In this document: in pieces, positions 21,347-62,559 of the stretch
Layout of the letters: every line of letters begins with the position of its first letter
Numbering within the stretch: position 1 is the stretch's first letter
NCBI GenBank assembly: GCA_000991245.1
Contig: LBRD01000001.1
Location: 69,467-133,466 of the forward strand
Direction of reading: 5' to 3'
Source of the DNA: Parcubacteria group bacterium GW2011_GWC1_36_108
GTDB lineage: Bacteria; Patescibacteriota; Minisyncoccia; Moranbacterales; GWC2-37-73
Length of the DNA: 64,000 nucleotides
The notes under the pieces: model-generated
What the model saw: the letters and a program-made list of their open reading frames with translations, nothing else
Told to the model about the DNA's origin: nothing
The model's database searches: none
Made by a program: the position numbers and the translations under genes

Positions 21347-21419
21347 TTGTCATCCTCAGCTTGACTGGGGATCCAGAGCGATGCCTAGCCCTGGATTCCC
21401 GTTTTCACGGGAATGACAC
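21347..21419. mobile_element. Palindromic element (PE) copy A, intergenic, inverted and diverged
   Basis: ttgtcatcc...ggatccag...ctggattcccgttttcacgggaatgaca; the reverse complement matches the 5' module gtcattcccgtgaaaacgggaatccag of copies B and C. Confidence 0.6.
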
Positions 21420-21469
21420 AGTGGTAATAATTAAGTTAACCTAGTGTTGCGTAACAAGTTACGTAACTT

Positions 21470-22354
21470 TTATTTTACCTCAACATTTTCTGCTTGTGGG
21501 TTTTCATCCACGGGAGGGTCGGTGTTTTTGAATTTATAGAAAACCTTGTTTTCGTTGCGAAGATCGATGTATGCAATTTCTCCTTTCTTATCCTCAGGAA
21601 TTTCTTTTTTCAAAACAGTTTCCAATGTTCTTATTGCTGAATCCAAGGAGAATTGAGTTGAAAAATAAAATTCTGTTTCCTGATTTGTTTTCACATTGAT
21701 TTCTTCAGCCATTCTTGATGGCGTGAAATATTGTCCAGTTGCCTCAAAACCAAGAGCTGCCAAAGAATCCTTGATGGCAAGTGCGTATTGTTCGTAAGAA
21801 GGTTCAATTATTTTGTCGCCAATTGTCACATCCCTCCTATTGGTTTCATTTATTTGCAACAGATTATTACCCATAAGATCTGGCGAGGAAAAATCAGCTT
21901 CGCTATATGCCGTGCCATTTTCATCAAGCAAATAACATTTTTCACTGCTACACCAAACCAGCAATGCTTTTCGTTCGTCGATTTCTATGCTCACAGTGTC
22001 TGGAAATTTTTTAATCACACTCAGTGTGCGAATTTTTTTAAATTTATCATTCAAAAGATTTTCAAACTTTCTTTGCGAAACAAACAAAAAATTATTTCTT
22101 GGAATTATTCCCAAGTATTTTCCTTGTAGCGAATCACTAACAATCTGTTGAATTTCCTGCCCATTAAGTTCTTTTGTGCCTAAAACTGTAATGTTTACGA
22201 TTTGAAGATGTTGAGAAAAAAATACGACATATCCCGTCACACCGATAAAACAAACCAGCAACGTATAGAAAATAAACACCGAGAAAAATCGTGAAGACTT
22301 TTTTTCTTCCTCGCAATCATTTCCTGTGCAATTTTTAATATATTTTCTCGACAT
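21470..22354 (-). CDS. ftsQ: Cell division protein FtsQ/DivIB-like
   Basis: 294 aa; short cytoplasmic N-terminus, single TM, POTRA-like region (HLQIVNITVLGTKELNGQEIQ). Confidence 0.5.
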   Translation of the reverse strand: MSRKYIKNCTGNDCEEEKKSSRFFSVFIFYTLLVCFIGVTGYVVFFSQHLQIVNITVLGTKELNGQEIQQIVSDSLQGKYLGIIPRNNFLFVSQRKFENLLNDKFKKIRTLSVIKKFPDTVSIEIDERKALLVWCSSEKCYLLDENGTAYSEADFSSPDLMGNNLLQINETNRRDVTIGDKIIEPSYEQYALAIKDSLAALGFEATGQYFTPSRMAEEINVKTNQETEFYFSTQFSLDSAIRTLETVLKKEIPEDKKGEIAYIDLRNENKVFYKFKNTDPPVDENPQAENVEVK

Positions 22355-22395
22355 TTTCGTATTAATTTTAATTTGTATTTATATCCGAGTGACAA

Positions 22396-23295
22396 CTACA
22401 TATCCATAAACAAGGTTTCCAAAATAAGTCTACTATTAGCGTTAGTCCTTTTCAAGACTGTCATAGCTTTCTGAATTTTTTCAATGATAGCACACGCTCT
22501 ATTACTTTCTATTTGATTTACATCAACAGCAATCTTTCTAATCTCCCAAAGCCAAACATTCAGCTTATCAAGAGTTCGAACCGCATCTTTGGAAAGTTCT
22601 TCCGCTAACTTGAATTTTTCATTCAATGTCCCCTTTCTTATTTTTTCAAGTTCCATTAGAGCATTAGTTCTAAAAAGTTTTTCCTCATTATGCTCGCTTA
22701 AATATTGCGCCAAGCCAGGTCTGCCGATAGAAAGTTCCACACAATCTTTTTGAAAAGAAAAATTTTCTGCAAAACCAACTTGCATATCCTCATCATCAAC
22801 CAAGCCAAAATTAATAACTTGCAAACGCGAAAGGATGGTAGGCAGAATCCTATCAATTTCATTGGTTATTAAAATTAAAATAGTTGTCGGATTAGGCTCT
22901 TCAAGAATTTTCAATAATGCGTTTTGACAACCATTTGTCATACGATGAGCATCGTTAACGATAAGAACCTTATATTTTCCGTGATAAGGAAACAAACTCA
23001 AACTAAGCTTGGCGTCCCTTATTGATTCGATTGAAATGTCGCGCTGTTTTGAAATGCCATTTTTCTCAGTAATCTCCGGCTCCACAATTACCAAATCAAG
23101 CATTGCATCCTTATCCACATTATCAATATCCAAATTTAATTCACTGCCGGAAATAGCACCAAGTGCAAACATTTTTGCCAAAGTAAATTTTCCAACCTTT
23201 TCCGGCCCAGAAAAAAGATACGCGTGATTAAGTGTAGCATTTTGGATGCTTCTTTGAAGAATATCAACTGCTTTTTTGTTACCAATGAAATCCAT
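22396..23295 (-). CDS. holB: DNA polymerase III delta' subunit
   Basis: 299 aa; AAA+ P-loop-like HAYLFSGPEKVGKFTLAKMFA, typical clamp-loader size. Confidence 0.65.
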   Translation of the reverse strand: MDFIGNKKAVDILQRSIQNATLNHAYLFSGPEKVGKFTLAKMFALGAISGSELNLDIDNVDKDAMLDLVIVEPEITEKNGISKQRDISIESIRDAKLSLSLFPYHGKYKVLIVNDAHRMTNGCQNALLKILEEPNPTTILILITNEIDRILPTILSRLQVINFGLVDDEDMQVGFAENFSFQKDCVELSIGRPGLAQYLSEHNEEKLFRTNALMELEKIRKGTLNEKFKLAEELSKDAVRTLDKLNVWLWEIRKIAVDVNQIESNRACAIIEKIQKAMTVLKRTNANSRLILETLFMDM

Positions 23296-23392
23296 TCAAC
23301 CATGTAGCATGTAGCATGTAGCATGTAGCAAGAGCTTTTTAAAACTCTCCGCATTTTTGTTATATGTTATATGTTGTATGTTATATGATTAA
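23296..23392. repeat. Tandem heptamer arrays (catgtag)x4 and (atgttat)-type
   Basis: catgtagcatgtagcatgtagcatgtagca ... atgttatatgttgtatgttatatg. Confidence 0.7.
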
Positions 23393-24512
23393 CATATTCC
23401 CCAAACTCATGTCTAAACCTTTCTCTCGAAAATTCTTCTCCTCTTTTTCTGATCACATTTTTATCATATTTATCTTTGCTATCCAAAAATCTCCTCACAC
23501 CATCTGCCAACACTTCTGGTGTCTGAGCATCAAAAAATTCTCCAGTAATTCCCTCTTGCACTGTTTCTTGCGCGCCACCTTTTCGATATGCAATCACAGG
23601 CACACCAGCGAGCATCGCTTCCACTGGCGCAATACCAAAATCATCTTCTGTTGGAAAAATAAAAGCTGCAGCATTTTGATAATATTGCGAAACGGCTGAA
23701 TCATCTTGCCAACCCAAAATGTGCACATTTTCTTTGGCAATTTTCCTCAAGTATTTTTCCTGCTCTCCAGTTCCAATAACAACCAAAGGAAGTCCGAGCT
23801 TATTAAAAGCCTCCACCACCAAATCAACTTTTTTGTATGGAGAAAGACGAGAAACAACTAGAAAATAGGATTTGGGTTTTAGGTTGTAGGTTGTAGGTTT
23901 AGATTGTTTTTCTAATTCCAAATTCCTATTTCCTAATTCCTGATTTACTGGTGGATATATGACTTTACTATCGCGTCTATAATATTTATCTACACGTTGT
24001 TGAGTATATTTCGAATTTGCAATCAGAAAATCCGGCCTGTCCGCTGCCAAGCGATCCCACACGCGCAGATAATTAAAAACTATTCTCGTCAAAAAATTCA
24101 TCCTTCTATGTTCAGTTTCTTTGACATATCTTTCATTATAATCCCAAACAAAACGCATTGGAGAATGAAGATATGCGATATGCACGGTGTCTAATTTTGT
24201 CACAATCCCTTTGCTCCAAGCACCAGAAGATGAAATGACCAAATCATATTCTCGAAGATCAAATGTTTCTGGAATTACTGGGAAAAATGGCAGCAAAAAA
24301 CGATATCTTTTTTTCAAAAAATTTGGGAATTTTTGCAAATATGATGGTCTGATATCTTTCCCCTCAAACAAACCTTTCATTTTTTCTTTATCATACAGCA
24401 ACGTGAAAATTGGCGCCTCTGGATACATATCTGAAAGCTCTTTCAGCACTCTCTCCGCTCCGCCCTGCTGAACAAGGAAGTCGTGGACCAACGCAACCCT
24501 TAATTTATCCAT
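23367..24512 (-). CDS. GT4-family glycosyltransferase
   Basis: 381 aa; EDDFGIAPVEAMLAGVPVIAY (E-x7-E). Contains an in-frame simple repeat (ggttgtaggttgtaggtt giving KPTTYNLKPK). Confidence 0.65.
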   Translation of the reverse strand: MDKLRVALVHDFLVQQGGAERVLKELSDMYPEAPIFTLLYDKEKMKGLFEGKDIRPSYLQKFPNFLKKRYRFLLPFFPVIPETFDLREYDLVISSSGAWSKGIVTKLDTVHIAYLHSPMRFVWDYNERYVKETEHRRMNFLTRIVFNYLRVWDRLAADRPDFLIANSKYTQQRVDKYYRRDSKVIYPPVNQELGNRNLELEKQSKPTTYNLKPKSYFLVVSRLSPYKKVDLVVEAFNKLGLPLVVIGTGEQEKYLRKIAKENVHILGWQDDSAVSQYYQNAAAFIFPTEDDFGIAPVEAMLAGVPVIAYRKGGAQETVQEGITGEFFDAQTPEVLADGVRRFLDSKDKYDKNVIRKRGEEFSRERFRHEFGEYVNHITYNI

Positions 24513-24524
24513 AAAAAATGATTC

Positions 24525-25796
24525 TTAATTCTTTTTTAACAATATTTGGGATATTTCCTGTGCACATTTCTCCCAACTGAACCTTTTCACGTTCTCCAAT
24601 CCTTTCTGTATTATAGCATTTTTTAGGGTTTCGTCCGAGATGAGCTTAAAAATATTTTCGGCAATGTCCTGAGGGTTTTGGGGATCGACCAAGAGGGCTG
24701 AGCAATATCCGTTGTCATTCCCGTGAAAACGGGAATCCAGACCCTCTCCTGCATGCTTAGCCCTGGATTCCGGATCAAGTCCGGAATGACAAGATGCAAC
24801 CTCAGGAATAGATGAATTATTGCTAGCCACGACAGGGCAACCAACACTTTGCGCTTCCAAAACAGGAATTCCAAATCCCTCATACAGGGTTGGAAAAACG
24901 AAAACATCCGCCTTTTTTAATAATTCCCATTTTTCTTCTTCACTCACAAAACCAAGCTCGACAATGTCGTCGCAACATTTAACCTTTGACATTTGACTTT
25001 TGACATCTTGATAACCAAATCCAGACTTCCCAGCAAGAACTAGTTTGTGCGGAATATTATATTTCTCTTTCAAAATCTCAAAAGCCTTAACAATATTGGA
25101 AATATTTTTTCTTTCCTCAATGCGACCAATAAATAAAAGAAATTTCGAATTTCGAATTTCGAATTTCGATTGAATTTCTAATGTTTTAATTTTTGAAATT
25201 TGATCATTTGGATTTGATTGGAAATTGGAAATTGGAAATTGGAAATTCCGCTCCCCGCGGCTATACCCTTCGTAAATTACAGATATTTTTTTACTATCCA
25301 CGTTATATAATCTTTGCAAATCAAGCTTTGTATTATTCGACACTGCAATAATTGAACTCGCCCACTGACATGATTTCTTAATCGTTCCGCGCATATAAAT
25401 TCTTTCCCAAGAAGAATATGCTTTTGGACAAAATTCATATTCCAAACCGTGAATCACAACTATTGTTTTTTTGGGATGGATGATTGGAACAGTGTGCGCA
25501 GGAATAAAAAGCACATCAACCGGATGCAACAACATTTCCAAAGACAAGCCAATCTGCGTCCAAAATCTAGGAAATTTAATGACCTTTATTTGCCAACTTT
25601 TTGGCAATTCCAAATCATTAATTTTAACAACTCCGTTGTAAGTTGTAAGTTGTAAGTTGTTAGTTTTTTTAACATACAAAATAACCCGCTGATCATTTAA
25701 TTTATCACGCAGGTTTTTAATAACTTGATATGAATATTCTTCAATTCCAGTTCTGTTTTTTATAAAAGCCCGAGAGCCATCGATTCCTATGATCAT
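24525..25796 (-). CDS. GT4-family glycosyltransferase carrying a palindromic-element insertion and several in-frame oligomer-repeat insertions
   Basis: YEGFGIPVLEAQSVGCPVVAS GT4 motif. Likely start at MIIGIDGSRAF (25796); the ORF-track start at 25838 would read through repeat DNA. In-frame inserts: element copy B (CHSGLDPESR...LDSRFHGND), cgaatttc x3, ttggaaa x4, ttgtaag x3. Confidence 0.6.
   Translation of the reverse strand: MIIGIDGSRAFIKNRTGIEEYSYQVIKNLRDKLNDQRVILYVKKTNNLQLTTYNGVVKINDLELPKSWQIKVIKFPRFWTQIGLSLEMLLHPVDVLFIPAHTVPIIHPKKTIVVIHGLEYEFCPKAYSSWERIYMRGTIKKSCQWASSIIAVSNNTKLDLQRLYNVDSKKISVIYEGYSRGERNFQFPISNFQSNPNDQISKIKTLEIQSKFEIRNSKFLLFIGRIEERKNISNIVKAFEILKEKYNIPHKLVLAGKSGFGYQDVKSQMSKVKCCDDIVELGFVSEEEKWELLKKADVFVFPTLYEGFGIPVLEAQSVGCPVVASNNSSIPEVASCHSGLDPESRAKHAGEGLDSRFHGNDNGYCSALLVDPQNPQDIAENIFKLISDETLKNAIIQKGLENVKRFSWEKCAQEISQILLKKN
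24712..24792. mobile_element. Palindromic element copy B, 81 nt, inserted in frame in the GT4 gene
   Basis: TIR ttgtcattcc/ggaatgacaa; hairpin modules cccgtgaaaacggg and ccggatcaagtccgg; ggaatccag/ctggattcc. Confidence 0.7.
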
Positions 25797-25891
25797 TATA
25801 CGAATTATGCAAATTAATGCTAATACACGAATATGCAAATTAATTCATTCGCATATTTGCATCATTTGCATTCATTCGCGTATTAGTATCA
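25797..25891. repeat. Palindromic octamer array, family R
   Basis: cgaattatgcaaattaatgctaatacacgaatatgcaaattaatt | cattcgcatatttgcatcatttgcattcattcgcgtattagtat. Confidence 0.7.
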
Positions 25892-26899
25892 TTATTTACT
25901 AAGTGTAATCGTCCTTTTATACACCTCAAGATTATCAAGAGCAATTCCAATTCCTTTAATCACGCAAAACAATGGATCATCAGCAACATAGCAAGGAACA
26001 CCAATCGTTTTTGTGATCAACTGATCAAGATTGCGAAGCAGTGCTCCACCACCAGAAAGGATCATTCCCTTATCCATAATATCAGCAGCTAATTCTGGAG
26101 GAGTTTCTTGAAAAACTTTTTTAATGGCATTTATCACTTCTCGCAGCTCATCTTGCAAAGCTTCTGTCACTTCATTGGAAGAAATTTTAATTGTCTTTGG
26201 CAGTCCACCCATCAAGTCGCGTCCGCGCACTTCCATATGTTCTTCTTTAACTTGTGCAATTGCAGATCCAATTTCTTTTTTAATATCCTCAGCAGTTCTA
26301 TCACCAACTGCCAAACCATATTTTCGTTTAATATAATCAGAAATAGCTTGATCAAATTTATTGCCTCCCACGCGTGCACTGTGCGCTGCCACAACGCCGC
26401 CCAACGAAATTACTGCGATTTCAGATGTACCACCACCGATATTAATAATCATATTACCAGAAGCGTTGTGAATCGGAATTCCAGCACCGATTGCAGCCAA
26501 GAGTGGCTCCTTCACAACGTACGCTGATTTTGCTCCAGCTTTCACAGCCGCATCAATCACTGCACGACGTTCAGTTGAAGTCACTCCTGCCGGAATTGAA
26601 ATCATAATTTCCGGTTTGAAAATTCGAACTTTGCCAGTCACTTTATTGATAAAATATTTCAACATAGCTTCCGTCACGCGATAATCTGCAATCACACCAT
26701 CCTTCATTGGACGAGATGCCACAATATTATCCGGTGTGCGCCCAAGCATTTCGCGCGCTTGATTCCCCACCGCCAAAACAATATTCTCTATCGGAGAAAC
26801 TGCCACCACCGATGGCTCATTCACAACAATTCCTTTGCCGGGTATAAAAACCAAGGTGTTTGCTGTGCCAAGATCAATTCCAATTCTTCGTATAAACAT
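25892..26899 (-). CDS. mreB: Rod-shape-determining protein MreB
   Basis: 335 aa; IGIDLGTANTLVF actin-fold phosphate-1 motif, typical length. Confidence 0.9.
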   Translation of the reverse strand: MFIRRIGIDLGTANTLVFIPGKGIVVNEPSVVAVSPIENIVLAVGNQAREMLGRTPDNIVASRPMKDGVIADYRVTEAMLKYFINKVTGKVRIFKPEIMISIPAGVTSTERRAVIDAAVKAGAKSAYVVKEPLLAAIGAGIPIHNASGNMIINIGGGTSEIAVISLGGVVAAHSARVGGNKFDQAISDYIKRKYGLAVGDRTAEDIKKEIGSAIAQVKEEHMEVRGRDLMGGLPKTIKISSNEVTEALQDELREVINAIKKVFQETPPELAADIMDKGMILSGGGALLRNLDQLITKTIGVPCYVADDPLFCVIKGIGIALDNLEVYKRTITLSK

Positions 26900-26904
26900 A
26901 AGCG

Positions 26905-27005
26905 TAAAAAATTTCTAATTACTAATTTCTAATTTCTAAACAATTTCCAATGATTCAATTTTTAAATCCTAATTTCTAATTTCTAATTCCTAACTCCTAA
27001 AATCT
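26905..27005. repeat. Tandem (ctaattt/ctaattc)n array
   Basis: taattactaatttctaatttctaaa...cctaatttctaatttctaattcctaactcctaaaatc; extends into the 3' end of the next CDS. Confidence 0.65.
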
Positions 27006-27316
27006 GACACTCTAAAATTTCCGTTTTCTAATTTTCTTTTTTCCCTGCTCATTATTTTTGCGTGCTTTTTCCAGAACGCTTCTTCAAATTCTTCAACAGG
27101 AATTCCAGTACTAATCAAATTTCCTAAAATCAAAACAACCAAATCAACATTTTCCTCTATAAATTCTTCTCTTGATTTCCCTTTCGTCACAGCCTGCGCC
27201 AACTCACCCAATTCCTCAGTCATCAAATTCAAACGAAATTGCATATCCTCATTATTCGTCCCCTTCATTTCATTCTTCTTATGAAATTCCACAATCGCAT
27301 TATAAAATTTTTCCAT
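26990..27316 (-). CDS. MazG-like nucleotide pyrophosphohydrolase (small all-alpha NTP-PPase)
   Basis: 108 aa; EELGELAQAV (EExxE) metal-binding helix. Confidence 0.5.
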   Translation of the reverse strand: MEKFYNAIVEFHKKNEMKGTNNEDMQFRLNLMTEELGELAQAVTKGKSREEFIEENVDLVVLILGNLISTGIPVEEFEEAFWKKHAKIMSREKRKLENGNFRVSDFRS

Positions 27317-27321
27317 AATAT

Positions 27322-27768: not shown

Positions 27769-27800
27769 ATTTTTTATAAATCTTTTGAATGGTGGGCATA

Positions 27801-27896
27801 CTTTTTCTTTTTTCACTTAAAACAAGTCTCCTTGGTGTTAATTTTAAAAAGTTGCAATTGTTTTTCTGTGATAAAAAGAAAAATGTATGCGAACAA
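27801..27896. repeat. Copy 2 of the ~95-nt hairpin element
   Basis: ctttttcttttttcacttaaaacaagtctccttggtgtta...aaaagttgcaattgtttttctgtgataaaaagaaaaa; matches 7474-7566. Confidence 0.6.
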
Positions 27897-27915
27897 CTAA
27901 AGCACAGAAACAAAA

Positions 27916-36858: not shown

Positions 36859-36996
36859 GTTTCAGAAGTTACGCGTTTCGAAACATTTCTTTTTTGGCCA
36901 ATTGTTGGCGACAGCAACTCTTTGAGCTTTTGGATATTGAGCATTTATCCAAAAGCGTGCCAAAGAAGAAAAGTTGAGAAAATGCGTAAGTCCTAA
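36859..36996 (+). ncRNA. Copy 2 of the ~138-nt structured element (candidate small RNA)
   Basis: Same three helices as copy 1. Compensatory changes (gtcg/cgac to gttg/caac) and an A to G change that keeps pairing as G-U only on the plus strand. A T-rich tract (gtgtttttcttttttc) follows it. The overlapping ORF 36862..37101 is judged spurious. Confidence 0.45.
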
Positions 36997-54204: not shown

Positions 54205-54345
54205 CTAATTAAATTATAAATATAATACTAATATGCAAATTTATACTAATACGCGAATACGCTAATGACGCAAATGAAAACGTGAGCACTGATTTGCATA
54301 TTTGCATCATTCGCAGAAGGTCATTTGCATCATTTGTATCAGGTC
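54205..54345. repeat. Palindromic octamer array, family R
   Basis: ctaatatgcaaatttatactaatacgcgaatacgctaatgacgcaaat ... atttgcatatttgcatcattcgca...tcatttgcatcatttgtatc. Confidence 0.7.
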
Positions 54346-55890: not shown

Positions 55891-55893
55891 TTA

Positions 55894-55970
55894 TTGGTGG
55901 GCTTATCAAGATTCGAACTTGAGACCTCGTCATTATCAGTGACGCGCTCTAACCAGCTGAGCTATAAGCC
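55894..55970 (-). tRNA. tRNA-Ile (anticodon GAU), CCA encoded
   Basis: Minus-strand sequence GGGCTTATAGCTCAGCTGGTTAGAGCGCGTCACTGATAATGACGAGGTCTCAAGTTCGAATCTTGATAAGCCCACCA folds as a canonical cloverleaf. Confidence 0.9.
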
Positions 55971-56009
55971 CGTATAATTTGTAAAAGCTGCGTGATAAAC
56001 GCAGCATTG

Positions 56010-56082
56010 TGGACCGGACAGGACTTGAACCCGCTACCTCCTCAGTGCAAGTGAGGCGCTCTACCAGGTGAGCTACCGGCCC
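56010..56082 (-). tRNA. tRNA-Ala (anticodon UGC), no encoded CCA
   Basis: GGGCCGGTAGCTCACCTGGTAGAGCGCCTCACTTGCACTGAGGAGGTAGCGGGTTCAAGTCCTGTCCGGTCCA; G3:U70 Ala identity pair; T stem contains two G-U pairs. Confidence 0.85.
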
Positions 56083-56150
56083 ATAAATGAGCTACAAAAA
56101 CAATTATAACAGTATAAAAAAATTTGTCTATAGTACGCTACTCTTGTACG

Positions 56151-56753
56151 CTACTCTTTTATTTCCAAGTGACTTTCAAGATATTTATCCCTTAAATATA
56201 TAGCGCAGGCTGTTATCACCTTAAAATCATCTAGTTTAGCATTTTCATACAAAAATCTCTTTACTGGCGTGTAGGGATTATTTTCTCTCATACCCGCGAG
56301 TTCCGTTAACAAAACGATTGAATATTTTTCAACGTCATATTTTGTCTGCAATTTAAATTTATCCAAAGTTTCAAATAAGCTTTTTCTATTATCTTCATTA
56401 TCGATCGATGCTTTCCACCCAACCTTTTCAATAAATGCAATGCCATCTGGCGTAAGATTTACTGGACTATTTGTGGAAAAAAGATCTGGATTATCAAGAG
56501 TATTTTTTTCAGCTAAAGCAGCAATGAGCGTATTGAATTTTTCAAGTAGTTTAGTGTGTTTTTTATCTAACGATTTTATATCCTTTTTTACATCATCAAA
56601 CAAGCACATGGTACTATTTGTCTTATCAACAAATCTAAAAATACGAATGGCTATACCTACAATTATATAAACAGCCCAAACAACAAAAGCAACACTGACA
56701 AGCCATGCTGGCATTGGAAAATTAGAAGCTATTGTTAATAAGAATGTTTCCAT
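56151..56753 (-). CDS. Hypothetical membrane-anchored protein
   Basis: 200 aa; N-terminal TM helices. Confidence 0.45.
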   Translation of the reverse strand: METFLLTIASNFPMPAWLVSVAFVVWAVYIIVGIAIRIFRFVDKTNSTMCLFDDVKKDIKSLDKKHTKLLEKFNTLIAALAEKNTLDNPDLFSTNSPVNLTPDGIAFIEKVGWKASIDNEDNRKSLFETLDKFKLQTKYDVEKYSIVLLTELAGMRENNPYTPVKRFLYENAKLDDFKVITACAIYLRDKYLESHLEIKE

Positions 56754-57077
56754 ACATTTAGTTTAGCAATAAATAAATTGTACGTCCAACGACGATCGCC
56801 GACTTGGCCGTCAAGGTCGCTCAGCTTCACTCTCCTGACTGCCGTCGGAACGATTTAAAATACTGCCTGTAAGCAAAAAATGGAATTTTTTGCATGTCTA
56901 AAAACTGCAGGAATTAGAAATTTGTGATTTAACAAAATAAAAAAGGTGGACAGCAATATAATCTCCAAAGTCGTTTTCTTTTCATTTTCATTAAGAGAAT
57001 CGTTTCTTTTTGAATTATATATTTGTCCACCCTCTAGCCCCTTTCATAAAAACAGTCGATTCATTACAAGTTTGCTA

Positions 57078-57734
57078 TCAGTACATTTCCTCGGACTTCA
57101 ACGCCGGTGACAATCCGCAATGGGAAGGAATTCCATTGCTACCCTTCCAGTTTTCGGAAGACTTTCCTTCTCGGATGCTCTTGTAGCAATCAACAGCGCT
57201 TTGAAGATTTGTGCTTCTGACACGAACCTTGATGAGAGAGCGAAACGCATAGGCACAGCCATACTGACTTGCCGTTGGTATATCAAACTTCTCATCGGTG
57301 TACGTTACGGAATATGTAGCCCTACCCATGCTGTCGGTACCCTGTTTGATGTGCTGGTTTTCTTCCTTGAGCAGGGTGTCGAATATCGTCACGTTCACGA
57401 TCTTAAGACCTTTGAAAATCCTGTGGATCTCAAGATCAATAACATCGTTAGCCTTGACATAGGCAAGGTCGGGTTCCTTATCCTCCCGTATTACTGTCGT
57501 GTTTCCGAGGTTTGTGTAATTATAGCCAGATTCCTTTTTACCCTCTTCCTTTTTGAGGACGCCTGCTTTTTCCAGTCTTCGCAGAACTGCCTGCTTGTTA
57601 AAATAAATTCTCGCTTCCATTTCCTGCCTCCTTTGACTGAGTGATTGATTGAGTAATTGTCTTCTGGTTACTTTTTCTCGACTGTAAAAATTTAAAGGGC
57701 TAGTGCTGACTGTTTGATATTCATCAACAATCAA
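57078..57734 (-). CDS. Hypothetical protein in a GC-richer (probably acquired) segment
   Basis: 218 aa ORF; about 45% GC against a genome background of about 33%; distinct codon usage. Confidence 0.45.
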   Translation of the reverse strand: MIVDEYQTVSTSPLNFYSREKVTRRQLLNQSLSQRRQEMEARIYFNKQAVLRRLEKAGVLKKEEGKKESGYNYTNLGNTTVIREDKEPDLAYVKANDVIDLEIHRIFKGLKIVNVTIFDTLLKEENQHIKQGTDSMGRATYSVTYTDEKFDIPTASQYGCAYAFRSLIKVRVRSTNLQSAVDCYKSIREGKSSENWKGSNGIPSHCGLSPALKSEEMY

Positions 57735-57892
57735 CTTACTATGTTAGCATAAAATTCATCACCTGTCAAGCATACTAATGGCCTAGTAAAGCCATAATTT
57801 TCAAGGGTTAATCAATTTTAGGGTAAAATGTGGAAATTTCATCAGTATACCTTTCAAATATATAAGTTCGGACAGCACACCATGTCGACCAC

Positions 57893-57962
57893 CTAAAAAA
57901 TCCCTATTTATAGGGATTTTATATATATAAAAAACCCCCGGAAAATTATATTTTCCGGGGCA
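57893..57962 (-). terminator. Tandem rho-independent terminators
   Basis: aaatccctatttatagggattt and ccccggaaaattatattttccgggg hairpins, each followed by a T-run on the minus strand. Confidence 0.55.
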
Positions 57963-57998
57963 TATTCAATCTTAAGGCATTTTTAAGGCATTGCTTTT

Positions 57999-58820
57999 TT
58001 AAACACTAGCTTGAGCTCTCCTTACTTCCTTTTTAAGAGAACGCAATCCACATGCATTTATAGGAATTCCAATGTCAGACAAAATGAATTTTTTCCTAGA
58101 AAATTTCTCATCCTTACTTAATCTGCCGATACCAAAATCTTCCTCCAATAACCCACAATAAACCGCTCCTTTATGGGTTATTTGAACAAAGGTTTTTTGT
58201 CCAATTTTTTTTTGCATTATAAGTCCCGATTTCAGCATTTTTTCAACAAGCCTGAAAGCACTTCTTTTATTTGGTTCAGTATTACCTTCTAATTCACCTT
58301 CTTCATTATCCCTGTATTTATTAAAATCATACCACTGAGCCCGCATAAGATCATGTGTCCAATTCTGAAATAAATCAAACGAAAAAAAGGCATCGATTTT
58401 CATGAATACGACCTTGAGCACAACCACTATCATTTCATTGAAAATAACTTTAGCAGCCAGTGCCTTTGCTTGTTTTTTTTGTTCCTTGCGTGACTTTAAT
58501 GTTTCCAGCGATTGATTTTCTATCCGCTTTTGATTAATAACTTCACGTCTATGTATGCGCAAGGTTTGCATTCTTGACTGCACCACAACTAATCTTCCGT
58601 TAGATACCCTGCAAAATTTCCGATGCAAAAGATATTTCATTATATTAGCACATTCCTCTTTGGGTAGCTTTTTCCTTTTGATAAATTCTCTCAAAACAGA
58701 ACAAGTATCCATACAGCAAGCCGTACTACGACCTTTAAAAATGGTCTCTAAAACCTTATGCAAAAAATACAACTTGTAGGGTTTCTTTCGCCTAAGTGTA
58801 TTAGTCTGTTTTTTAGACAT
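57999..58820 (-). CDS. Hypothetical basic protein (possibly a DNA-binding or replication-type protein of a mobile element)
   Basis: 273 aa, K/R-rich, AGG/AGA-rich codon usage unlike the neighbouring genes. Confidence 0.4.
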   Translation of the reverse strand: MSKKQTNTLRRKKPYKLYFLHKVLETIFKGRSTACCMDTCSVLREFIKRKKLPKEECANIMKYLLHRKFCRVSNGRLVVVQSRMQTLRIHRREVINQKRIENQSLETLKSRKEQKKQAKALAAKVIFNEMIVVVLKVVFMKIDAFFSFDLFQNWTHDLMRAQWYDFNKYRDNEEGELEGNTEPNKRSAFRLVEKMLKSGLIMQKKIGQKTFVQITHKGAVYCGLLEEDFGIGRLSKDEKFSRKKFILSDIGIPINACGLRSLKKEVRRAQASV

Positions 58821-59037
58821 GGTGTCCTCCTTCTTTTGTTAAGATAACCACTTAAAATCATTCTCGCATTATTTCAATCAATGTCAATACATCTCACTTA
58901 TACACTGTTTTATTTTTATTAAAAAGGAGTATACTAAAATTATCCAGAATATGCGAAGTTCTTTATTAAATTTAAAGGAGGTGATATCAAAAAACTTCAC
59001 TTCGCATATTCCAAATTCCTTTTTAAGGAGTAACTTT

Positions 59038-59199
59038 ATGTCAAATAGCACGCCCACCAGATGGGCAGCAAAAAGTTTCATACCCCACCCCACAAAAAGT
59101 CAAGAAAAATTTATTTGCACTATTTGTGGAGACAGCACCAAGGTTGACGTAGGAACTGAGCCAGGTGAAAGTACTCAGTGCAAATGCAACTCACAATAA
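59038..59199 (+). CDS. Small zinc-ribbon protein (CxxC...CxC), hypothetical
   Basis: SD aaggag 8 nt upstream of ATG; CTICGD...CKCNSQ. Confidence 0.3.
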   Translation: MSNSTPTRWAAKSFIPHPTKSQEKFICTICGDSTKVDVGTEPGESTQCKCNSQ

Positions 59200-59224
59200 A
59201 AAACTTTCAGCCACTAAACAAACA

Positions 59225-59270
59225 AGAGCCCGACGGAAAAATCCGCCGGGCTCTGATAATATATTTTTCG
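59225..59270. terminator. Bidirectional rho-independent terminator
   Basis: agagcccgacgg aaaaatcc gccgggctct followed by a T-run. Confidence 0.6.
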
Positions 59271-59271
59271 T

Positions 59272-60195
59272 TTATTGCTTTTTCAAAAATTCTTGAACAC
59301 TATGTGCAGCGACTGCGCCTTCGGCGGCGGCAGTGATGATCTGTTTAAATTTATCTGAGCCGGTCGTGATGTCCCCTGCAGCCCAAATACCTTTTTTACT
59401 AGTCCTGCCAGAAGTGTCAATTTTTACATATCCTTGCTCATCCAATTCAATTTCCAAATTTTTTATCAAATCAACATTTGGATCAGAGCCAATTTCAGCA
59501 AACACACCATCAACTTTCAATGTTTCACTATTTTTATATGGACTGTCCAAAATTAACTCCTCAACTTTTTGTTCACCTTTAATTTCTTTGATGTTTGTCA
59601 TAAAAACACTTTCTATTTTTGGATTTTTGGAAATAGCCTCTCCCCAAAAAGTTTCGCATCTAAGTTTTTCTCCACGATAAATCAAATATACTTTCTCGGC
59701 GATGTCACCTAAATACACCGCAGCGCCTGCTGCGCTGTCATTTCCACCAACCACTGCCACAGTTTTTCCACGATAAAAAAATCCGTCGCATGTTGCACAA
59801 TACGAAACACCTTTGCCGGCAAATTCTTTTTCTCCAGGCACACCCAGGTGCCTGTGTTTTGTTCCCATTGCTAGCAAAATTGTTTTTGCTTGAATTTTTT
59901 TTCCATTGCTAAGAGATAAAACGTAATTATTGTCTTTTTCGTTGATCTCATCAATCAAGGTATTTATGATTTCAGCCTTATTGTAGCTTTTAGCATGAGC
60001 CTCAGCTTTTTGTGCAAAATCAAAACCACTGATCTTTTCAGTGCCAAGCCAATTACCAATCTCGTGAGTTTGTGTTGTGAGTCCCCCTGAAATTCCACCA
60101 ATAACCACATTGGAAATTCCATAACGTGAAGCATACACCGAAGCCGAAAGCCCCGCGGGTCCAGCACCTATAATAGCTAAGTCAAAAACTTCCAT
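59272..60195 (-). CDS. trxB: Thioredoxin reductase
   Basis: 307 aa; FDLAIIGAGPAGLSASVYASRYG FAD motif, redox-active CATC. Confidence 0.9.
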   Translation of the reverse strand: MEVFDLAIIGAGPAGLSASVYASRYGISNVVIGGISGGLTTQTHEIGNWLGTEKISGFDFAQKAEAHAKSYNKAEIINTLIDEINEKDNNYVLSLSNGKKIQAKTILLAMGTKHRHLGVPGEKEFAGKGVSYCATCDGFFYRGKTVAVVGGNDSAAGAAVYLGDIAEKVYLIYRGEKLRCETFWGEAISKNPKIESVFMTNIKEIKGEQKVEELILDSPYKNSETLKVDGVFAEIGSDPNVDLIKNLEIELDEQGYVKIDTSGRTSKKGIWAAGDITTGSDKFKQIITAAAEGAVAAHSVQEFLKKQ

Positions 60196-60229
60196 ACAAA
60201 TAAAATATTATTTTGAAATTATATTTTTT

Positions 60230-60375
60230 CCCATTTAATTCAATTTTAAATCCCAATATCAAAATCTAAATTTCAAATAAATGCCTAAATGACGAAATGT
60301 CAAAAAAATGCATTGATTTTTTAGAATTTAAGATTTTAGGTTTTATTTGACATTTGTCATTTAGATTTTGGATTT
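60230..60375. repeat. Oligomer arrays (aaatgtca/aaatgcct; gatttta/ggtttta)
   Basis: Intergenic region between trxA and trxB. Confidence 0.55.
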
Positions 60376-60376
60376 T

Positions 60377-60706
60377 CTACAAAAGTATTTCTATTTCTTC
60401 TCTCAACTTCTCCTTAGCATTAAAACCAATTATTTCTCTAATAACTTTTCCGTCTTTAAAAACTTTCATATTGGGAATGCTTTGAATTTGATATTCCATT
60501 GCTAATGCTTGATGAGCTGGATTTTCCACATCAAGCTTTGTAATTTTTACTTTTCCATCAAGTTCAGCTACAAGTTCATCCAAAATTGGAGCCATCATAC
60601 GACATGGTCCACACCAAGGTGCCCAAAAATCAACCAACACAATTTCTTTTGATTCAAGCACTTCCTCCTTGAATGTTTTGTCTGTAAGCTCTATTACTTT
60701 GTTCAT
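60377..60706 (-). CDS. trxA: Thioredoxin
   Basis: 109 aa; WAPWCGPCR active site. Confidence 0.85.
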   Translation of the reverse strand: MNKVIELTDKTFKEEVLESKEIVLVDFWAPWCGPCRMMAPILDELVAELDGKVKITKLDVENPAHQALAMEYQIQSIPNMKVFKDGKVIREIIGFNAKEKLREEIEILL

Positions 60707-60803
60707 AACTTTTGTTCATGTAGCATATAGCATATTTATACTATAAACTTTTTCTATTATTAATTTAGTGTTACATGCTATATGTTGCATGTTATATGAA
60801 TTT

Positions 60804-61073
60804 TTATTGCATTTTAAATAATGATTTAAGATATTTTTCGTCTATTTTTTTCTTTCCATCAAATTTGCAAACGAAATCATTTTTTAGAAGCTCTATTCCT
60901 AGCATCGAAACCGCCTCACGAATAGCGGTAATTTGAGTAATCACATCCAAACATTGTTTTTTATCTTCCACCATTTTACGCACACCTCGCAGTTGTCCCT
61001 CGATACGAGAAATACGATTCACTATTTTTTCAGCTGATTCCTTCTCAGATGAAATTTTATCTTCCTTTTTCAT
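60804..61073 (-). CDS. CsoR/RcnR/FrmR-family metal-sensing transcriptional repressor
   Basis: 89 aa; RISRIEGQLRGVRKMVEDKKQCLDVITQITAIREA matches the family helix pattern with a conserved Cys. Confidence 0.65.
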   Translation of the reverse strand: MKKEDKISSEKESAEKIVNRISRIEGQLRGVRKMVEDKKQCLDVITQITAIREAVSMLGIELLKNDFVCKFDGKKKIDEKYLKSLFKMQ

Positions 61074-61273
61074 TTGGAATTAAACCCGCCTGCATCGCTA
61101 TGCGAAGCATTGCGGGCAGGAATTAAAAATTAAAAATTCCGCCTCGTGCGGTAAATACCCTCTAGGGGTATATTACAGTATAAGAAAAAATCTGTCAAAT
61201 GTCCAATTATATTAATTGACATAACACTTTGTTACTGTTAATTTTAAGAAAAATCAAAGGAAGGAGTACTGCT

Positions 61274-61465
61274 ATGCAGAAATCGTATCAGGAACCTTAT
61301 CAGGTCTTTAACAATGGAACAGAAATACTACACATTATCGGCACAGTAGTACTTGTTCTTTTACTCTTTTACGTGCTTGCATTCCTTTATTGCGTCTTAA
61401 GGGGTTACTGCAATCTCCTCCCCCAAAAACCTAAGCACCACACGAAAGAACAAGAGGAAGAGTAG
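61274..61465 (+). CDS. Small membrane peptide (one TM), hypothetical
   Basis: SD aaggaaggag; TM HIIGTVVLVLLLFYVLAFLYCVL. Confidence 0.3.
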   Translation: MQKSYQEPYQVFNNGTEILHIIGTVVLVLLLFYVLAFLYCVLRGYCNLLPQKPKHHTKEQEEE

Positions 61466-61544
61466 GTCAAAAAAATTGTAATAAAAGTCTCTTCAAATGA
61501 TCAATGTCCATAAAAACACATATTTTTCAAAAAGGAGATCAATT

Positions 61545-61709
61545 ATGTATTATCTAAAAATGCTTATTGACGACCATCCAGGAATTTGCGTTTTTATTTC
61601 TTTTTCTATTCTTGCATGGATTATTCTTTTTTCAATTTTTTGCAGACGTGATAAACAGCAAGATCAGCAGGACAGTCTTGCGATCGCACAGCAAGACGAC
61701 TTTGAATAA
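61545..61709 (+). CDS. Small membrane peptide (one TM), hypothetical
   Basis: SD aaaaggag; TM GICVFISFSILAWIILFSIFC. Confidence 0.3.
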   Translation: MYYLKMLIDDHPGICVFISFSILAWIILFSIFCRRDKQQDQQDSLAIAQQDDFE

Positions 61710-61755
61710 AAAAAATTTTCCAACAAAATAAAACGTGCATTATTCAGGGATAGGA

Positions 61756-62559
61756 CTATAATCTTATCCCTTTTTTATTTCCAATAAACAATATATTTTT
61801 TCCATCCACAATTGCGCATTTTTCTGTTTTAAAACCTGCTTGTTCAAAAAGTTTTCTTAATTCTCTTTTTGTGAAGGCCCGGTGGAATCTTTGGATCTTC
61901 TCACCCTCATTATTTGTAAAAGATATATAACAATCATTCCAATCCAAAATACTATTTCCCTTTAATTTATCAATCCAGTTTTGTAAAATATTTTTAAAGT
62001 ATTTCTGCTGCCATAAATACCAAACTGTCACCACAATATGCCCACCATCTTTTGTGGTTCGATAAAGTTCTGCTGCCACATCCTCGCGATATTTTTTTGA
62101 AGGAAAATGATGAAAAACAGCAATGCTATATATAGTATTGAAAAAATTATCATTGAATGCTAGAGTGGTTGAACTAGGATTAATTTTCTGAAAACATACC
62201 TCCGTGTCATTCCCGTGAAAACGGGAATCCAGAACTTTGCCAGACTGAAACGCGAACCTAGATTCCGGATCAAGTCCGGAATGACAAACAGACTGTTTTT
62301 GATATTTTTCTTTAGCAAGTTCAATAAGTTTTTCCGAAACATCCAAGCCCCAATAGCGAATATCCTCAAAATCAAGCAATTCCAAAAGGCGACCATTGCC
62401 ACAGCCATAATCCAAAACATTATCATTTTTGCGCGTATAATCTTTTATAAACTCCAGCCCACGCCAAAAATGCTTCCGAGTCTCGGAAAATTTCTTAGAA
62501 ATCAGATCATAGCCAACTTCAGTTTCATTTAATATTCTTTCTGCAATTTCTTTATCCAT
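61756..62559 (-). CDS. Class I SAM-dependent methyltransferase carrying an in-frame palindromic-element insertion
   Basis: Motif I VLDYGCGNGRLLELL; inserted segment CHSGLDPESRFAFQSGKVLDSRFHGNDTEV is encoded by element copy C. Confidence 0.65.
   Translation of the reverse strand: MDKEIAERILNETEVGYDLISKKFSETRKHFWRGLEFIKDYTRKNDNVLDYGCGNGRLLELLDFEDIRYWGLDVSEKLIELAKEKYQKQSVCHSGLDPESRFAFQSGKVLDSRFHGNDTEVCFQKINPSSTTLAFNDNFFNTIYSIAVFHHFPSKKYREDVAAELYRTTKDGGHIVVTVWYLWQQKYFKNILQNWIDKLKGNSILDWNDCYISFTNNEGEKIQRFHRAFTKRELRKLFEQAGFKTEKCAIVDGKNILFIGNKKGIRL
62204..62287. mobile_element. Palindromic element copy C, 84 nt, in frame in the methyltransferase gene
   Basis: gtgtcattcccgtgaaaacgggaatccag...tagattccggatcaagtccggaatgacaa; same modules and orientation as copy B. 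Confidence 0.7.

What the first reader, a model, noticed from the sequence alone, without database searches (positions are those of the whole stretch)
21347..62287. An ~80-nt palindromic element in three copies, two inserted in frame inside protein-coding genes
Copies at 24712-24792 and 62204-62287 share 10-nt terminal inverted repeats (ttgtcattcc / ggaatgacaa), two internal hairpin modules (cccgtgaaaacggg; ccggatcaagtccgg), the pair ggaatccag / ctggattcc and a variable 26-29-nt centre. They are 81 and 84 nt long, both multiples of 3. Each sits inside an intact ORF: a GT4 glycosyltransferase (24525..25796) and a class I SAM methyltransferase (61756..62559). In both they are read in the same frame and orientation, adding CHSGLDPESR-x(8-11)-LDSRFHGND between conserved regions. 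A third copy at 21347-21419 is intergenic, inverted and more diverged. This matches the behaviour of Rickettsia palindromic elements, which are selfish palindromes tolerated as in-frame peptide insertions. I do not know of a described equivalent in this lineage. The GT4 gene also carries three in-frame oligomer-repeat insertions, so it is unusually tolerant of insertions.
Basis: partly seen in the sequence, partly recalled or inferred. Interest (0 to 1): 0.8.

Follow-up and report, generated by a model that had tools for sequence, protein, structure and literature searches.

The report
REP-type hairpin pairs inside CPR genes
Three copies of a small paired-hairpin DNA repeat sit in this Candidatus Moranbacteria (candidate phyla radiation) genome, two read through as disordered loops of working enzymes; the repeat belongs to an already described, pan-bacterial family (CGTC-tagged REPs, which include Neisseria dRS3/NTS and Rickettsia RPE-4/-6), so this is a new host lineage, not a new kind of element.

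Summary
Three copies exist at the stated coordinates, and two are true in-frame insertions in an intact GT4 glycosyltransferase and an intact SAM methyltransferase. Orthologues lack the segments. AlphaFold places both in the low-confidence loops of otherwise confident folds.

The element is not an undescribed kind. Each copy is a head-to-head dimer of two 28-29-nt hairpin modules, each starting with TGTC. One module differs from the Neisseria NTS consensus at 3 of 28 positions, two of them a compensatory pair. It is also the only thing in the window that matches the published Ssn-related-motif (SRM) pattern. This is the CGTC-tagged REP superfamily (Di Nocera 2013), which includes dRS3 and Rickettsia RPE-6/RPE-4. 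Its hairpins are the ssDNA targets of Ssn GIY-YIG nucleases (Chenal 2025). In-frame intragenic dimers encoding 20-30 aa were already reported for this family.

What is new:
- The host lineage, Patescibacteria.
- The exact 25-mer occurs across about 20 taxonomic groups.
- The GT4 loop carries five different inserts in five relatives.
- The hairpin modules are conserved far beyond the synonymous divergence of the host gene.

No ssn gene was found in the roughly 100 kb I could reach, so the mobilising enzyme in this genome is inferred. Verdict: new member of a known kind, moderate interest.

The parts
24712..24792 (.). Copy A: 81-nt head-to-head dimer of two hairpin modules, inserted in frame in the GT4 gene. 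It encodes CHSGLDPESRAKHAGEGLDSRFHGND, residues 336-361.
   Evidence: As ssDNA it folds to -17.3 kcal/mol, z -3.9. The segment is absent from orthologues. AF2 pLDDT is below 50 at residues 336-363.
24713..24740 (+). Module A1: TGTCATTCCCGTGAAAACGGGAATCCAG. TGTC tag, 8-bp stem, GAAA loop, CCAG tail (CGTC-1 / NTS type).
   Evidence: It matches the published SRM pattern. It differs from the NTS consensus at 3 of 28 positions, two of which form a compensatory pair.
24763..24791 (-). Module A2: TGTCATTCCGGACTTGATCCGGAATCCAG on the minus strand. TGTC tag, 8-bp stem, 5-nt CTTGA loop.
62204..62287 (.). Copy B: 84-nt head-to-head dimer inserted in frame in the SAM methyltransferase gene. It encodes CHSGLDPESRFAFQSGKVLDSRFHGND, residues 92-118.
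   Evidence: ssDNA fold -17.7 kcal/mol, z -4.3. Homologues match in two stretches that skip it. AF2 pLDDT is below 50 at residues 94-116. It is retained at the orthologous site in a sister species, L324.
62205..62232 (+). Module B1, identical to A1.
62258..62286 (-). Module B2: as A2 except for one tail base (CTAG instead of CCAG).
21347..21419 (.). Copy C: 73-nt intergenic head-to-head dimer between the 3' ends of two convergent genes, the PMT_2-type glycosyltransferase 19423..21270 (+) and the FtsQ-like gene 21470..22354 (-).
   Evidence: ssDNA fold -16.1 kcal/mol, z -4.1.
21391..21418 (-). Module C1, identical to A1 and B1, on the minus strand.
21348..21376 (+). Module C2: TGTCATCCTCAGCTTGACTGGGGATCCAG. 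It has the same CTTGA loop as A2/B2. The stem differs at five positions: four are compensated on both sides and one gives a G·T pair.
24525..25796 (-). Host gene 1: GT4-family glycosyltransferase, 423 aa, intact.
   Evidence: Pfam Glycos_transf_1 3.9e-34. Syntenic orthologues. AF2 mean pLDDT 78.
61756..62559 (-). Host gene 2: class I SAM-dependent methyltransferase, 267 aa, intact and under purifying selection.
   Evidence: Pfam Methyltransf_23/11. AF2 mean pLDDT 86. dN/dS 0.09 against the L324 orthologue. The identical protein is recorded in 41 blocks of the assembly collection, and six contigs from six independent samples were retrieved.

Best explanation
Each copy is a head-to-head (HH) heterodimer of two CGTC-tagged REP hairpins. 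One module has an 8-bp stem and a GAAA loop; it is the Neisseria dRS3/NTS, or 'Ssn-related motif', type. The other has an 8-bp stem and a CTTGA loop. A variable spacer separates them.

Shown here:
- The modules belong to a family found across about 20 taxonomic groups.
- The hairpin, rather than the exact sequence, is what is conserved.
- The dimers carry no target-site duplication.
- Two copies are genuine insertions into coding DNA that leave the enzymes intact.

The two in-gene copies are tolerated for three reasons. The inserted length is a multiple of three. The frame used is free of stop codons and hydrophilic. The site encodes a permissive surface loop.

Inferred from the literature on the family: the modules are single-stranded-DNA recognition hairpins for a small GIY-YIG nuclease of the Ssn family. 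The dimers are non-autonomous elements spread or homogenised through that ssDNA-hairpin pathway, analogous to REPIN/RAYT. They have no demonstrated benefit to the host proteins.

The enzyme acting in this Moranbacteria genome was not found.
For: Family identity:
- The published SRM pattern hits the window exactly three times, at the three GAAA modules, against 0.07 expected.
- The module has 3 mismatches in 28 to the NTS consensus CGTCATTCCCGCGMAVGCGGGAATCYRG. Two of them are a C-G to T-A swap of one stem pair.
- It fits the CGTC-REP description: tag often TGTC, stems of 8-9 bp starting with AT, loops of 4-5 nt, a 3-bp tail, mostly HH dimers with variable spacers, frequent heterodimers, and intragenic in-frame dimers encoding 20-30 aa.

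Spread:
- The exact 25-mer occurs in more than 120 stretches of species-representative genomes from about 20 taxonomic groups, including 13 CPR loci and a Rickettsia endosymbiont.
- The specific heterodimer occurs at 39 other distinct sites in metagenome contigs (41 with window copies A and B).

Hairpin selection:
- In 37 distinct partner modules, 98% of stem cells pair, against 26-48% when the partner is shifted. Up to four pair types occur per position.
- Module C2 has four compensated stem changes.

Insertion:
- 11 of 18 GT4 orthologues are empty at the site, and the closest (84% identity) lacks the dimer.
- Nearly all MTase homologues align as residues 1-90 plus 120-262.

Tolerance:
- In the MTase model the insert is the only internal segment with pLDDT below 50. 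In the GT4 model it is one of two, the other being the oligomer-repeat linker.
- The MTase has dN/dS 0.09.

Length filter: core length mod 3 is 2,2,2,2,1 for in-ORF copies, against 19:10:7 (mod 1:0:2) for intergenic copies.

DNA-level constraint: against the sister-species orthologue (L324), the 29-nt CTTGA module and the 28-nt GAAA module show no differences, the 25-nt spacer shows 6, and host-gene dS is 0.84.

No TSD: 195 dimers show none.

Link to Ssn:
- Ssn-like GIY-YIG ORFs with an SRM immediately upstream sit in L045, L009, and L298/L308. L298/L308 also carries the same heterodimer about 1 kb away.
- The published work shows that Ssn binds the hairpin and cleaves ssDNA upstream of it.
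Against: - No GIY-YIG/Ssn ORF was found in the window, in about 8.5 kb beyond its right end, or in about 45 kb of sister Moranbacteria sequence. The whole genome could not be read.
- Transposition of SRM or CGTC REPs by Ssn has never been shown. The 2025 paper raises it only as a hypothesis and demonstrates an effect on transformation instead.
- Copy density here is low, 3 in about 72 kb, whereas the ssn association was reported mainly for SRM-rich genomes.
- The CTTGA module does not fit the published SRM pattern strictly (my hand check; the scan returned only the GAAA modules).
- The module-conservation argument uses an orthologue that was found by requiring exact modules, so it is partly ascertained.
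- An RNA-level role for the hairpins is not excluded.
Confidence: 0.75

Rival explanations
1. The hairpin dimers have been taken over by the host. For example, they could be RNA stem-loops that tune mRNA stability or translation of the host genes. Or they could be DNA marks through which an Ssn-type nuclease limits recombination of incoming single-stranded DNA, as NTS does in Neisseria. On this view they are kept by selection, not merely tolerated.
For: The modules are unchanged between two species whose host gene has dS 0.84, while the spacer drifts. Hairpin covariation is strong. NTS/SsnA modulates natural transformation in Neisseria. From my own knowledge, not tested here: CPR bacteria depend on DNA uptake.
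Against: The same dimers occur in either orientation relative to transcription and mostly in intergenic DNA. They sit in unrelated genes: GT4, MTase, a HypF-like protein and an Eco57I-type methylase. SsnA does not act on RNA. Gene conversion among copies would produce the same conservation. There are no expression or functional data.
Confidence: 0.15
2. It is a classical MITE: a deleted insertion sequence with terminal inverted repeats, moved by a DDE transposase encoded elsewhere.
For: It has 9-10-nt terminal inverted repeats, a length of about 80 nt, several copies and no coding capacity.
Against: No target-site duplication occurs at 195 dimers; 2-5-nt matches are at chance level. The 'TIRs' are simply the tags and outer stems of two independent hairpin modules, and those modules also occur singly and with many different partners. 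Partner modules and spacers are freely exchanged. No related IS was seen.
Confidence: 0.05
3. It is a REPIN, that is a pair of GTAG-type REPs mobilised by a RAYT (IS200/IS605-like tyrosine transposase).
For: The architecture is the same: two inverted hairpins, a spacer and no TSD. A GTAG-tagged palindrome does occupy the same GT4 site in the sister species.
Against: The modules carry the CGTC/TGTC tag, not GTAG. Di Nocera 2013 found no association of CGTC families with RAYT genes. The window contains no GTAG palindromes. I did not search for RAYT genes with a profile.
Confidence: 0.04
4. The 26-27-aa segments are ancestral protein sequence, or a functional peptide module, and the palindromy is incidental.
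For: The segments are translated in frame, and the MTase segment is conserved in two species.
Against: Most orthologues lack them. The same DNA occurs in intergenic positions and in unrelated proteins. They are predicted to be disordered. Synonymous sites in the insert are about 8-fold more conserved than in the host gene, which points to a DNA-level constraint, not a protein-level one.
Confidence: 0.01

Closest known systems
CGTC-tagged REP superfamily (Di Nocera, De Gregorio & Rocco 2013, BMC Genomics 14:522; PMC3733652)
   Same: Tag CGTC, often TGTC. Stem of 8-9 bp starting with AT. Loop of 4-5 nt. 3-bp tail. Mostly head-to-head dimers, with spacers commonly 20-100 bp. Frequent heterodimers. 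Intragenic in-frame dimers encoding 20-30 aa. The GAAA module fits CGTC-1 (8-bp stem, 4-nt loop) and the CTTGA module fits the 8-bp/5-nt class.
   Different: [quoted passage not shown] Copy number here looks low. I could not see its Figure 2, so the assignment to numbered sub-families rests on the text only.
Neisseria dRS3 / NTS and 'Ssn-related motifs' with SsnA GIY-YIG ssDNA nucleases (Chenal et al. 2025, Nat Commun 16:2388; PMC11893778)
   Same: The 28-nt module matches NTS at 25 of 28 positions, with one compensated stem pair among the differences. It contains the dRS3 core ATTCCC-N8-GGGAAT and matches the published SRM search pattern. Ssn-like genes with an SRM directly upstream were found in loci that carry the same modules.
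   Different: No ssn gene was found in the sequence available for this organism. In N. meningitidis only 2% of NTS lie inside genes, whereas here 2 of 3 do. Neisseria copies cluster in large mosaic arrays, whereas here they are isolated dimers.
Rickettsia palindromic elements (RPE; Ogata et al. 2000, cited in PMC3733652)
   Same: Palindromic repeats inserted in frame in functional genes, adding short peptides. RPE-6 and RPE-4 are themselves CGTC-1 and CGTC-4 members, so they are homologous at module level. The exact 25-mer occurs in a Rickettsia endosymbiont (L238).
   Different: The classical RPE-1 is a longer, different palindrome. The host is an intracellular alphaproteobacterium, whereas here it is a groundwater CPR bacterium.
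REPIN / RAYT systems (Bertels & Rainey 2011)
   Same: Two inverted REP hairpins plus a spacer form one non-autonomous unit. There is no TSD. A single-copy enzyme that recognises ssDNA hairpins is presumed to act in trans.
   Different: REPINs carry a GTAG tag and use a HUH tyrosine transposase. This element carries a CGTC/TGTC tag, and its associated enzyme in other genomes is a GIY-YIG nuclease.
Bacterial MITEs such as the Neisseria Correia/NEMIS element
   Same: Small, non-coding, multi-copy, with inverted ends.
   Different: MITEs have long IS-derived TIRs and target-site duplications. Neither is present here.

Membership tests
CGTC-tagged REP superfamily | Terminal tetranucleotide CGTC (variants TGTC, CCTC) at the outer end of each module | tested here: met
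   All six modules start with TGTC. Across 195 dimers the tag base is T in 58-63% and C in 33-39%.
CGTC-tagged REP superfamily | Stem of 8-9 bp beginning with A-T and T-A pairs, loop of 4-5 nt, 3-bp tail | tested here: met
   ATTCCCGT/GAAA/ACGGGAAT+CCA; ATTCCGGA/CTTGA/TCCGGAAT+CCA; ATCCTCAG/CTTGA/CTGGGGAT+CCA. Description of the family.
CGTC-tagged REP superfamily | Stem maintained by compensatory change (a hairpin, not a fixed sequence) | tested here: met
   98.3% of stem cells pair in 37 distinct partner modules, against 26-48% when shifted. Position 7/22 shows T-A, C-G, A-T and G-C.
CGTC-tagged REP superfamily | Predominantly head-to-head dimers (tags outside) with a spacer, often heterodimers | tested here: met
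   All three copies are HH heterodimers with spacers of 14-25 nt. 120 and 195 such dimers were counted in related loci.
NTS / Ssn-related motif (SRM) | Matches the published degenerate pattern HGTCWYN(0-2)YYVSBRHN(0-5)WNVSBRGN(0-2)RNCYNB | tested here: met
   Three hits, the three GAAA modules, against 0.07 expected. The CTTGA modules were not returned by that scan, so they meet the pattern only loosely.
NTS / Ssn-related motif (SRM) | An ssn gene (single-domain GIY-YIG, about 100 aa, cd10448) in the same genome, typically flanked by SRMs | tested here: inconclusive
   None in the window or in the roughly 50 kb of flanking and sister-species sequence reached. The rest of the genome could not be read. 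The association was seen elsewhere: L045, L009, L098, L213, L298/L308.
NTS / Ssn-related motif (SRM) | The hairpin is bound, and ssDNA upstream of it is cleaved, by the cognate Ssn nuclease | not testable with these tools
   This needs an in-vitro assay. It has been shown for Neisseria and Wolbachia homologues.
Rickettsia palindromic elements | Palindromic repeat inserted in frame within functional ORFs, absent from orthologues | tested here: met
Rickettsia palindromic elements | Sequence relationship to a named RPE family | tested here: inconclusive
   The literature equates CGTC-1 with RPE-6 and CGTC-4 with RPE-4. The exact 25-mer is present in a Rickettsia endosymbiont (L238). I did not align against RPE consensus sequences.
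REPIN/RAYT | GTAG tag and an associated RAYT gene | tested here: not met
   The tag is TGTC, and the window contains no GTAG palindromes. RAYT genes were not searched with a profile.
MITE | Target-site duplication flanking IS-derived terminal inverted repeats | tested here: not met
   2-5-nt flank identities are at chance level in 195 dimers.

The most novel reading that the evidence does not exclude
Inside CPR genes these hairpin dimers may not be passive passengers.

First, the same loop-coding position of the GT4 gene carries five different structured or repetitive inserts in five Moranbacteria relatives. This suggests targeted insertion or element-for-element replacement at a 'landing pad', rather than random insertion filtered by selection.

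Second, the modules stay identical across species whose host gene is near synonymous saturation. This suggests either a DNA-level function or active homogenisation. One candidate function is Ssn-type control of recombination of incoming ssDNA in DNA-scavenging episymbionts.
Probability: 0.2. Interest if true: 0.6.

Novelty: new member of a known kind. Interest (0 to 1): 0.4.

Why it matters
This extends the CGTC-REP / NTS-SRM family, whose cognate Ssn nucleases were characterised only in 2025, into the candidate phyla radiation. It shows that an identical 25-nt hairpin is shared by organisms from about 20 taxonomic groups. That implies either very strong constraint from a conserved protein partner or frequent horizontal spread.

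For annotation, it explains the recurrent peptides CHSGLDPES..., LDSRFHGND, VIPVKTGIQ and SFPRKRES... seen in metagenomic proteins and in spurious small ORFs.

The recurrent colonisation of single surface loops by several repeat families in the small genomes of CPR bacteria offers a natural experiment in how proteins tolerate insertions. If the landing-pad reading is right, it also offers a handle on the insertion mechanism.

Tried and rejected
- Peptide search for other host proteins. The concatenated query returned only 34 short spurious ORFs and missed even the window's own proteins, so it says nothing about the in-ORF fraction.
- Rfam: no family matches the elements.
- GIY-YIG regex on the window: nothing found. 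My first regex on the loci was too strict (1 hit) and was replaced by phmmer and a profile.
- Genome-collection scan with the exact 25-mer. I hoped it would recover the source genome and give a copy count.
- Ssn profile search of the protein database: 8000 hits, with the top 120 dominated by Sphingomonadaceae. It is uninformative about CPR.
- L233, an apparent in-ORF single module. Rejected because it probably reflects read-through between two adjacent glycosyltransferase genes.
- Same frame and orientation in A, B and L330. Four of the six frames are open for this length class, so agreement of three independent cases (about 1 in 16) is not significant.
- P0039, a shorter cluster member, turned out to be a frameshifted assembly variant, not an empty site.
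- A bioRxiv preprint that mentions SsnA could not be opened.

Full report
**1. Observation**

- The 27-nt left end occurs exactly three times, with none expected by chance. The right end occurs twice.
- A scan for tag-plus-hairpin structures finds six modules, that is three dimers, and nothing else in 64 kb.
- Copy A (24712-24792, 81 nt) lies in a GT4 glycosyltransferase. Copy B (62204-62287, 84 nt) lies in a class I SAM methyltransferase. Both genes are on the minus strand and both have clear Pfam matches.
- Copy C (21347-21419) lies between two convergent genes.
- The elements are 49-55% G+C in a 36.5% G+C window.
- Minor corrections to repeat lengths and to the x(n) spacing are listed in the observation check.

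**2. Source organism**

Exact-sequence look-ups place the window in Candidatus Moranbacteria bacterium GW2011_GWC2_37_73, also named Parcubacteria GW2011_GWC1_36_108. This is a Rifle-aquifer CPR bacterium. The methyltransferase with its insert is recorded as the identical protein in 41 blocks of the assembly collection, and I retrieved it on six contigs from six independent NCBI, ENA and JGI samples. The insertions are therefore not assembly artefacts.

**3. Anatomy**

- Each copy consists of two hairpin modules in inverted orientation, with their TGTC ends outward, separated by a variable spacer.
- Module 1 is TGTC-ATTCCCGT-GAAA-ACGGGAAT-CCAG and is identical in all three copies.
- Module 2 is TGTC-ATTCCGGA-CTTGA-TCCGGAAT-CCAG in A and B.
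- In C, module 2 is TGTC-ATCCTCAG-CTTGA-CTGGGGAT-CCAG: the same loop, with four fully compensated stem changes.
- As single-stranded DNA each copy folds into an outer stem, two module hairpins and a central stem. Free energies are -16 to -19 kcal/mol, with z-scores of -3.5 to -4.7 against shuffles.

**4. They are insertions**

GT4:
- 11 of 18 aligned orthologues have nothing between ...SSIPEV and SALLVDP....
- The closest orthologue (84% identity, syntenic MreB-GT4-GT4-holB-FtsQ) lacks the dimer at the DNA level.

Methyltransferase:
- Nearly all of the 150 best homologues align as two stretches, residues 1-90 and about 120-262.
- The alignment shows the gap directly.

Predicted structures:
- The methyltransferase model has mean pLDDT 86, and its only internal segment below 50 is residues 94-116.
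- The GT4 model has mean pLDDT 78, with segments below 50 at 336-363 (the insert) and 180-199.
- Both inserts therefore lie between regular secondary-structure elements, as disordered loops.

Host gene function: the methyltransferase remains under purifying selection, with dN/dS 0.09 against a sister-species orthologue.

**5. What it is**

The core ATTCCC-N8-GGGAAT recalled the Neisseria dRS3 repeat, and a literature search confirmed the link.

Chenal et al. 2025 (PMC11893778) define the 28-nt NTS as CGTCATTCCCGCGMAVGCGGGAATCYRG. It is the ssDNA hairpin bound by SsnA, a small GIY-YIG nuclease. They also define a degenerate 'Ssn-related motif' found near ssn genes in many phyla.
- Module 1 differs from NTS at three positions, two of which swap one C-G stem pair for T-A.
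- The published SRM pattern hits the window exactly three times, at the three copies of module 1, against 0.07 expected.

Di Nocera et al. 2013 (PMC3733652) had already described the superfamily as CGTC-tagged REPs:
- The tag is often TGTC.
- Stems are 8-9 bp and start with AT; loops are 4-5 nt; the tail is 3 bp.
- Members are mostly head-to-head dimers with spacers of 20-100 bp, and heterodimers are frequent.
- Intragenic, in-frame dimers encode 20-30 aa.
- CGTC-1 equals Neisseria dRS3 and R. conorii RPE-6, and CGTC-4 equals RPE-4.

The window's elements fit every one of these features.

**6. Distribution**

- Hits came from Dehalococcoidia, Desulfobacterota, Nitrospirota, Nitrospinota, Ignavibacteria, Bacteroidota, Cloacimonadota, Planctomycetota, Verrucomicrobiota, Spirochaetota, Cyanobacteria, Proteobacteria, a Rickettsia endosymbiont and 13 CPR loci.
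- In the other CPR loci it again forms head-to-head dimers, with various partner modules.
- A looser pattern also saturated the viral-contig scan.
- The specific GAAA+CTTGA heterodimer occurs in 83 metagenome stretches. Counting window copies A and B, that gives 41 distinct sites and 29 different spacers.

**7. The hairpin is the conserved feature**

Partner modules of dimers were selected only through their tag and tail.
- 98.3% of stem cells form standard pairs, against 26-48% when the 3' partner is shifted.
- Up to four pair types occur at one position.

**8. In-ORF copies elsewhere, and length**

Among the 41 sites, five lie in real genes:
- window A;
- window B;
- the orthologous methyltransferase of a sister species (L324);
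- a HypF-like protein (L330);
- an Eco57I/TaqI_C-type methylase (L309).

Core lengths (GTCAT...ATGAC) modulo 3 are 2,2,2,2,1 for the in-ORF copies. Intergenic copies split 19:10:7 for residues 1:0:2. This is what a frame-preservation filter predicts if the inserted unit is the core plus about 4 nt.

Flanks of 195 dimers show no target-site duplication. They show a symmetric T-Y preference just outside the tag. This argues against a DDE-type MITE and is compatible with ssDNA-hairpin mechanisms.

That A, B and L330 share the same frame is not statistically significant, but that frame is the hydrophilic one.

**9. Conservation of the modules**

- The sister-species methyltransferase gene (L324) differs from the window gene at 110 of 699 sites outside the insert, with dS 0.84.
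- Within the insert, the 29-nt CTTGA module and the 28-nt GAAA module show no differences, while the 25-nt spacer shows six. Insert dS is 0.11.
- The orthologue was found by requiring exact modules, so this result is partly ascertained. Even so, zero changes in about 51 nt at this divergence is very unlikely under neutrality.
- Either selection on the hairpins or homogenisation among copies is acting.

**10. Mechanism, and what is not shown**

Shown: family membership, the insertion events, tolerance in loops, absence of TSDs, and hairpin covariation.

Inferred: that an Ssn-type GIY-YIG nuclease recognises these modules in this organism and is responsible for their spread or maintenance.
- Ssn-like ORFs (Pfam GIY-YIG) with an SRM directly upstream occur in L045 and L009, and in L298/L308. 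L298/L308 also carries the same heterodimer about 1 kb away.
- None was found in the window, in about 8.5 kb beyond it, or in about 45 kb of sister Moranbacteria DNA.
- An Ssn profile search was swamped by Sphingomonadaceae.
- Ssn-mediated transposition itself is only a published hypothesis.

**11. Comparison and novelty**

The element is a member of a described family, and its in-frame behaviour has precedent in Rickettsia and other genera. I found no paper linking REP, SRM or REPIN elements with Patescibacteria.

New here:
- the host lineage;
- the breadth of exact sequence identity across taxonomic groups;
- the high share of in-gene copies, 2 of 3 here against 2% in N. meningitidis;
- the loop hot spot described in section 12.

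I rate it a new member of a known kind, with interest 0.4.

**12. Side observation worth follow-up**

At the same codon position of the GT4 gene, five Moranbacteria relatives carry five different inserts:
- the dimer described here (window);
- a second TGTC-tagged dimer with the same left junction, CATCT|TGTCAT (L332);
- a two-hairpin insert (L333);
- a perfect 28-nt GTAG-tagged palindrome, GTAGAGACGCAAAATTTTGCGTCTCTAC (L247);
- a TACGAAY oligomer array (L334).

The methyltransferase loop likewise holds unrelated inserts in other homologues. I could not decide whether this reflects a permissive loop under heavy insertion pressure or a landing-pad effect.

Noticed in passing
window 24700-24800; L247:3990-4030; L332, L333 and L334 at the equivalent site: The same loop-coding position of the GT4 gene holds five different inserts in five Moranbacteria relatives: two different TGTC-tagged dimers, a two-hairpin insert, a perfect 28-nt GTAG-tagged palindrome, and a TACGAAY oligomer array. 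11 of 18 aligned orthologues are empty at this site.
   Followed up: partly
window 25143-25259 and 25617-25670: GT4 residues 180-218 and 43-60 are in-frame copies of dispersed oligomer-repeat elements (AATTTCC-type and GTTGTAA-type arrays). The same elements lie in intergenic DNA of the window, for example at 26910, 34395, 43648, 48173 and 2078. The first is a low-confidence linker in the AF2 model. This is a second and third repeat family read through as protein.
   Followed up: partly
window 3668-3800 and 36860-36992: An intergenic repeat of about 135 nt in two copies, 93-95% identical. It has no Rfam match and its nature is unknown.
   Followed up: partly
L330:6457-6536 and the surrounding ORF: A HypF-like ORF from a 40% G+C contig carries the same heterodimer in frame. 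It also appears, by eye, to carry further inserts: another palindrome-derived peptide (CHCESASW...ILAMT) and an oligomer-repeat peptide. Multiple in-frame repeat insertions per gene may therefore be common in these organisms.
   Followed up: no
P0039 (GW2011_GWD1_36_198), equivalent to window 24525-25796: One deposited version of the GT4 protein is frameshifted upstream of the element and reads it in the VIPDLIRNP...WIPVFTGMT frame. This is probably an assembly or indel artefact at the repeat.
   Followed up: no
L298:7618-8037 and L308:3718-4137: An Ssn-like GIY-YIG gene with an SRM (peptide VIPAKAGIQ) immediately upstream of its start, on a contig that also carries the GAAA+CTTGA heterodimer about 1 kb away. 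It is a candidate master locus for this dimer sub-family in a 46% G+C organism.
   Followed up: partly
window 55895-56082: tRNA-Ile(GAT) and tRNA-Ala(TGC) lie side by side, the pair usually found in an rRNA spacer. Rfam detects no rRNA anywhere in the window.
   Followed up: no
window 10230-10350, 10805-10859, 19314-19362, 25795-25898, 54232-54341: Arrays of TATGCGAAT-like oligomers recur in both orientations in several intergenic regions, including just upstream of the GT4 start codon. They may be a promoter-region repeat family.
   Followed up: no
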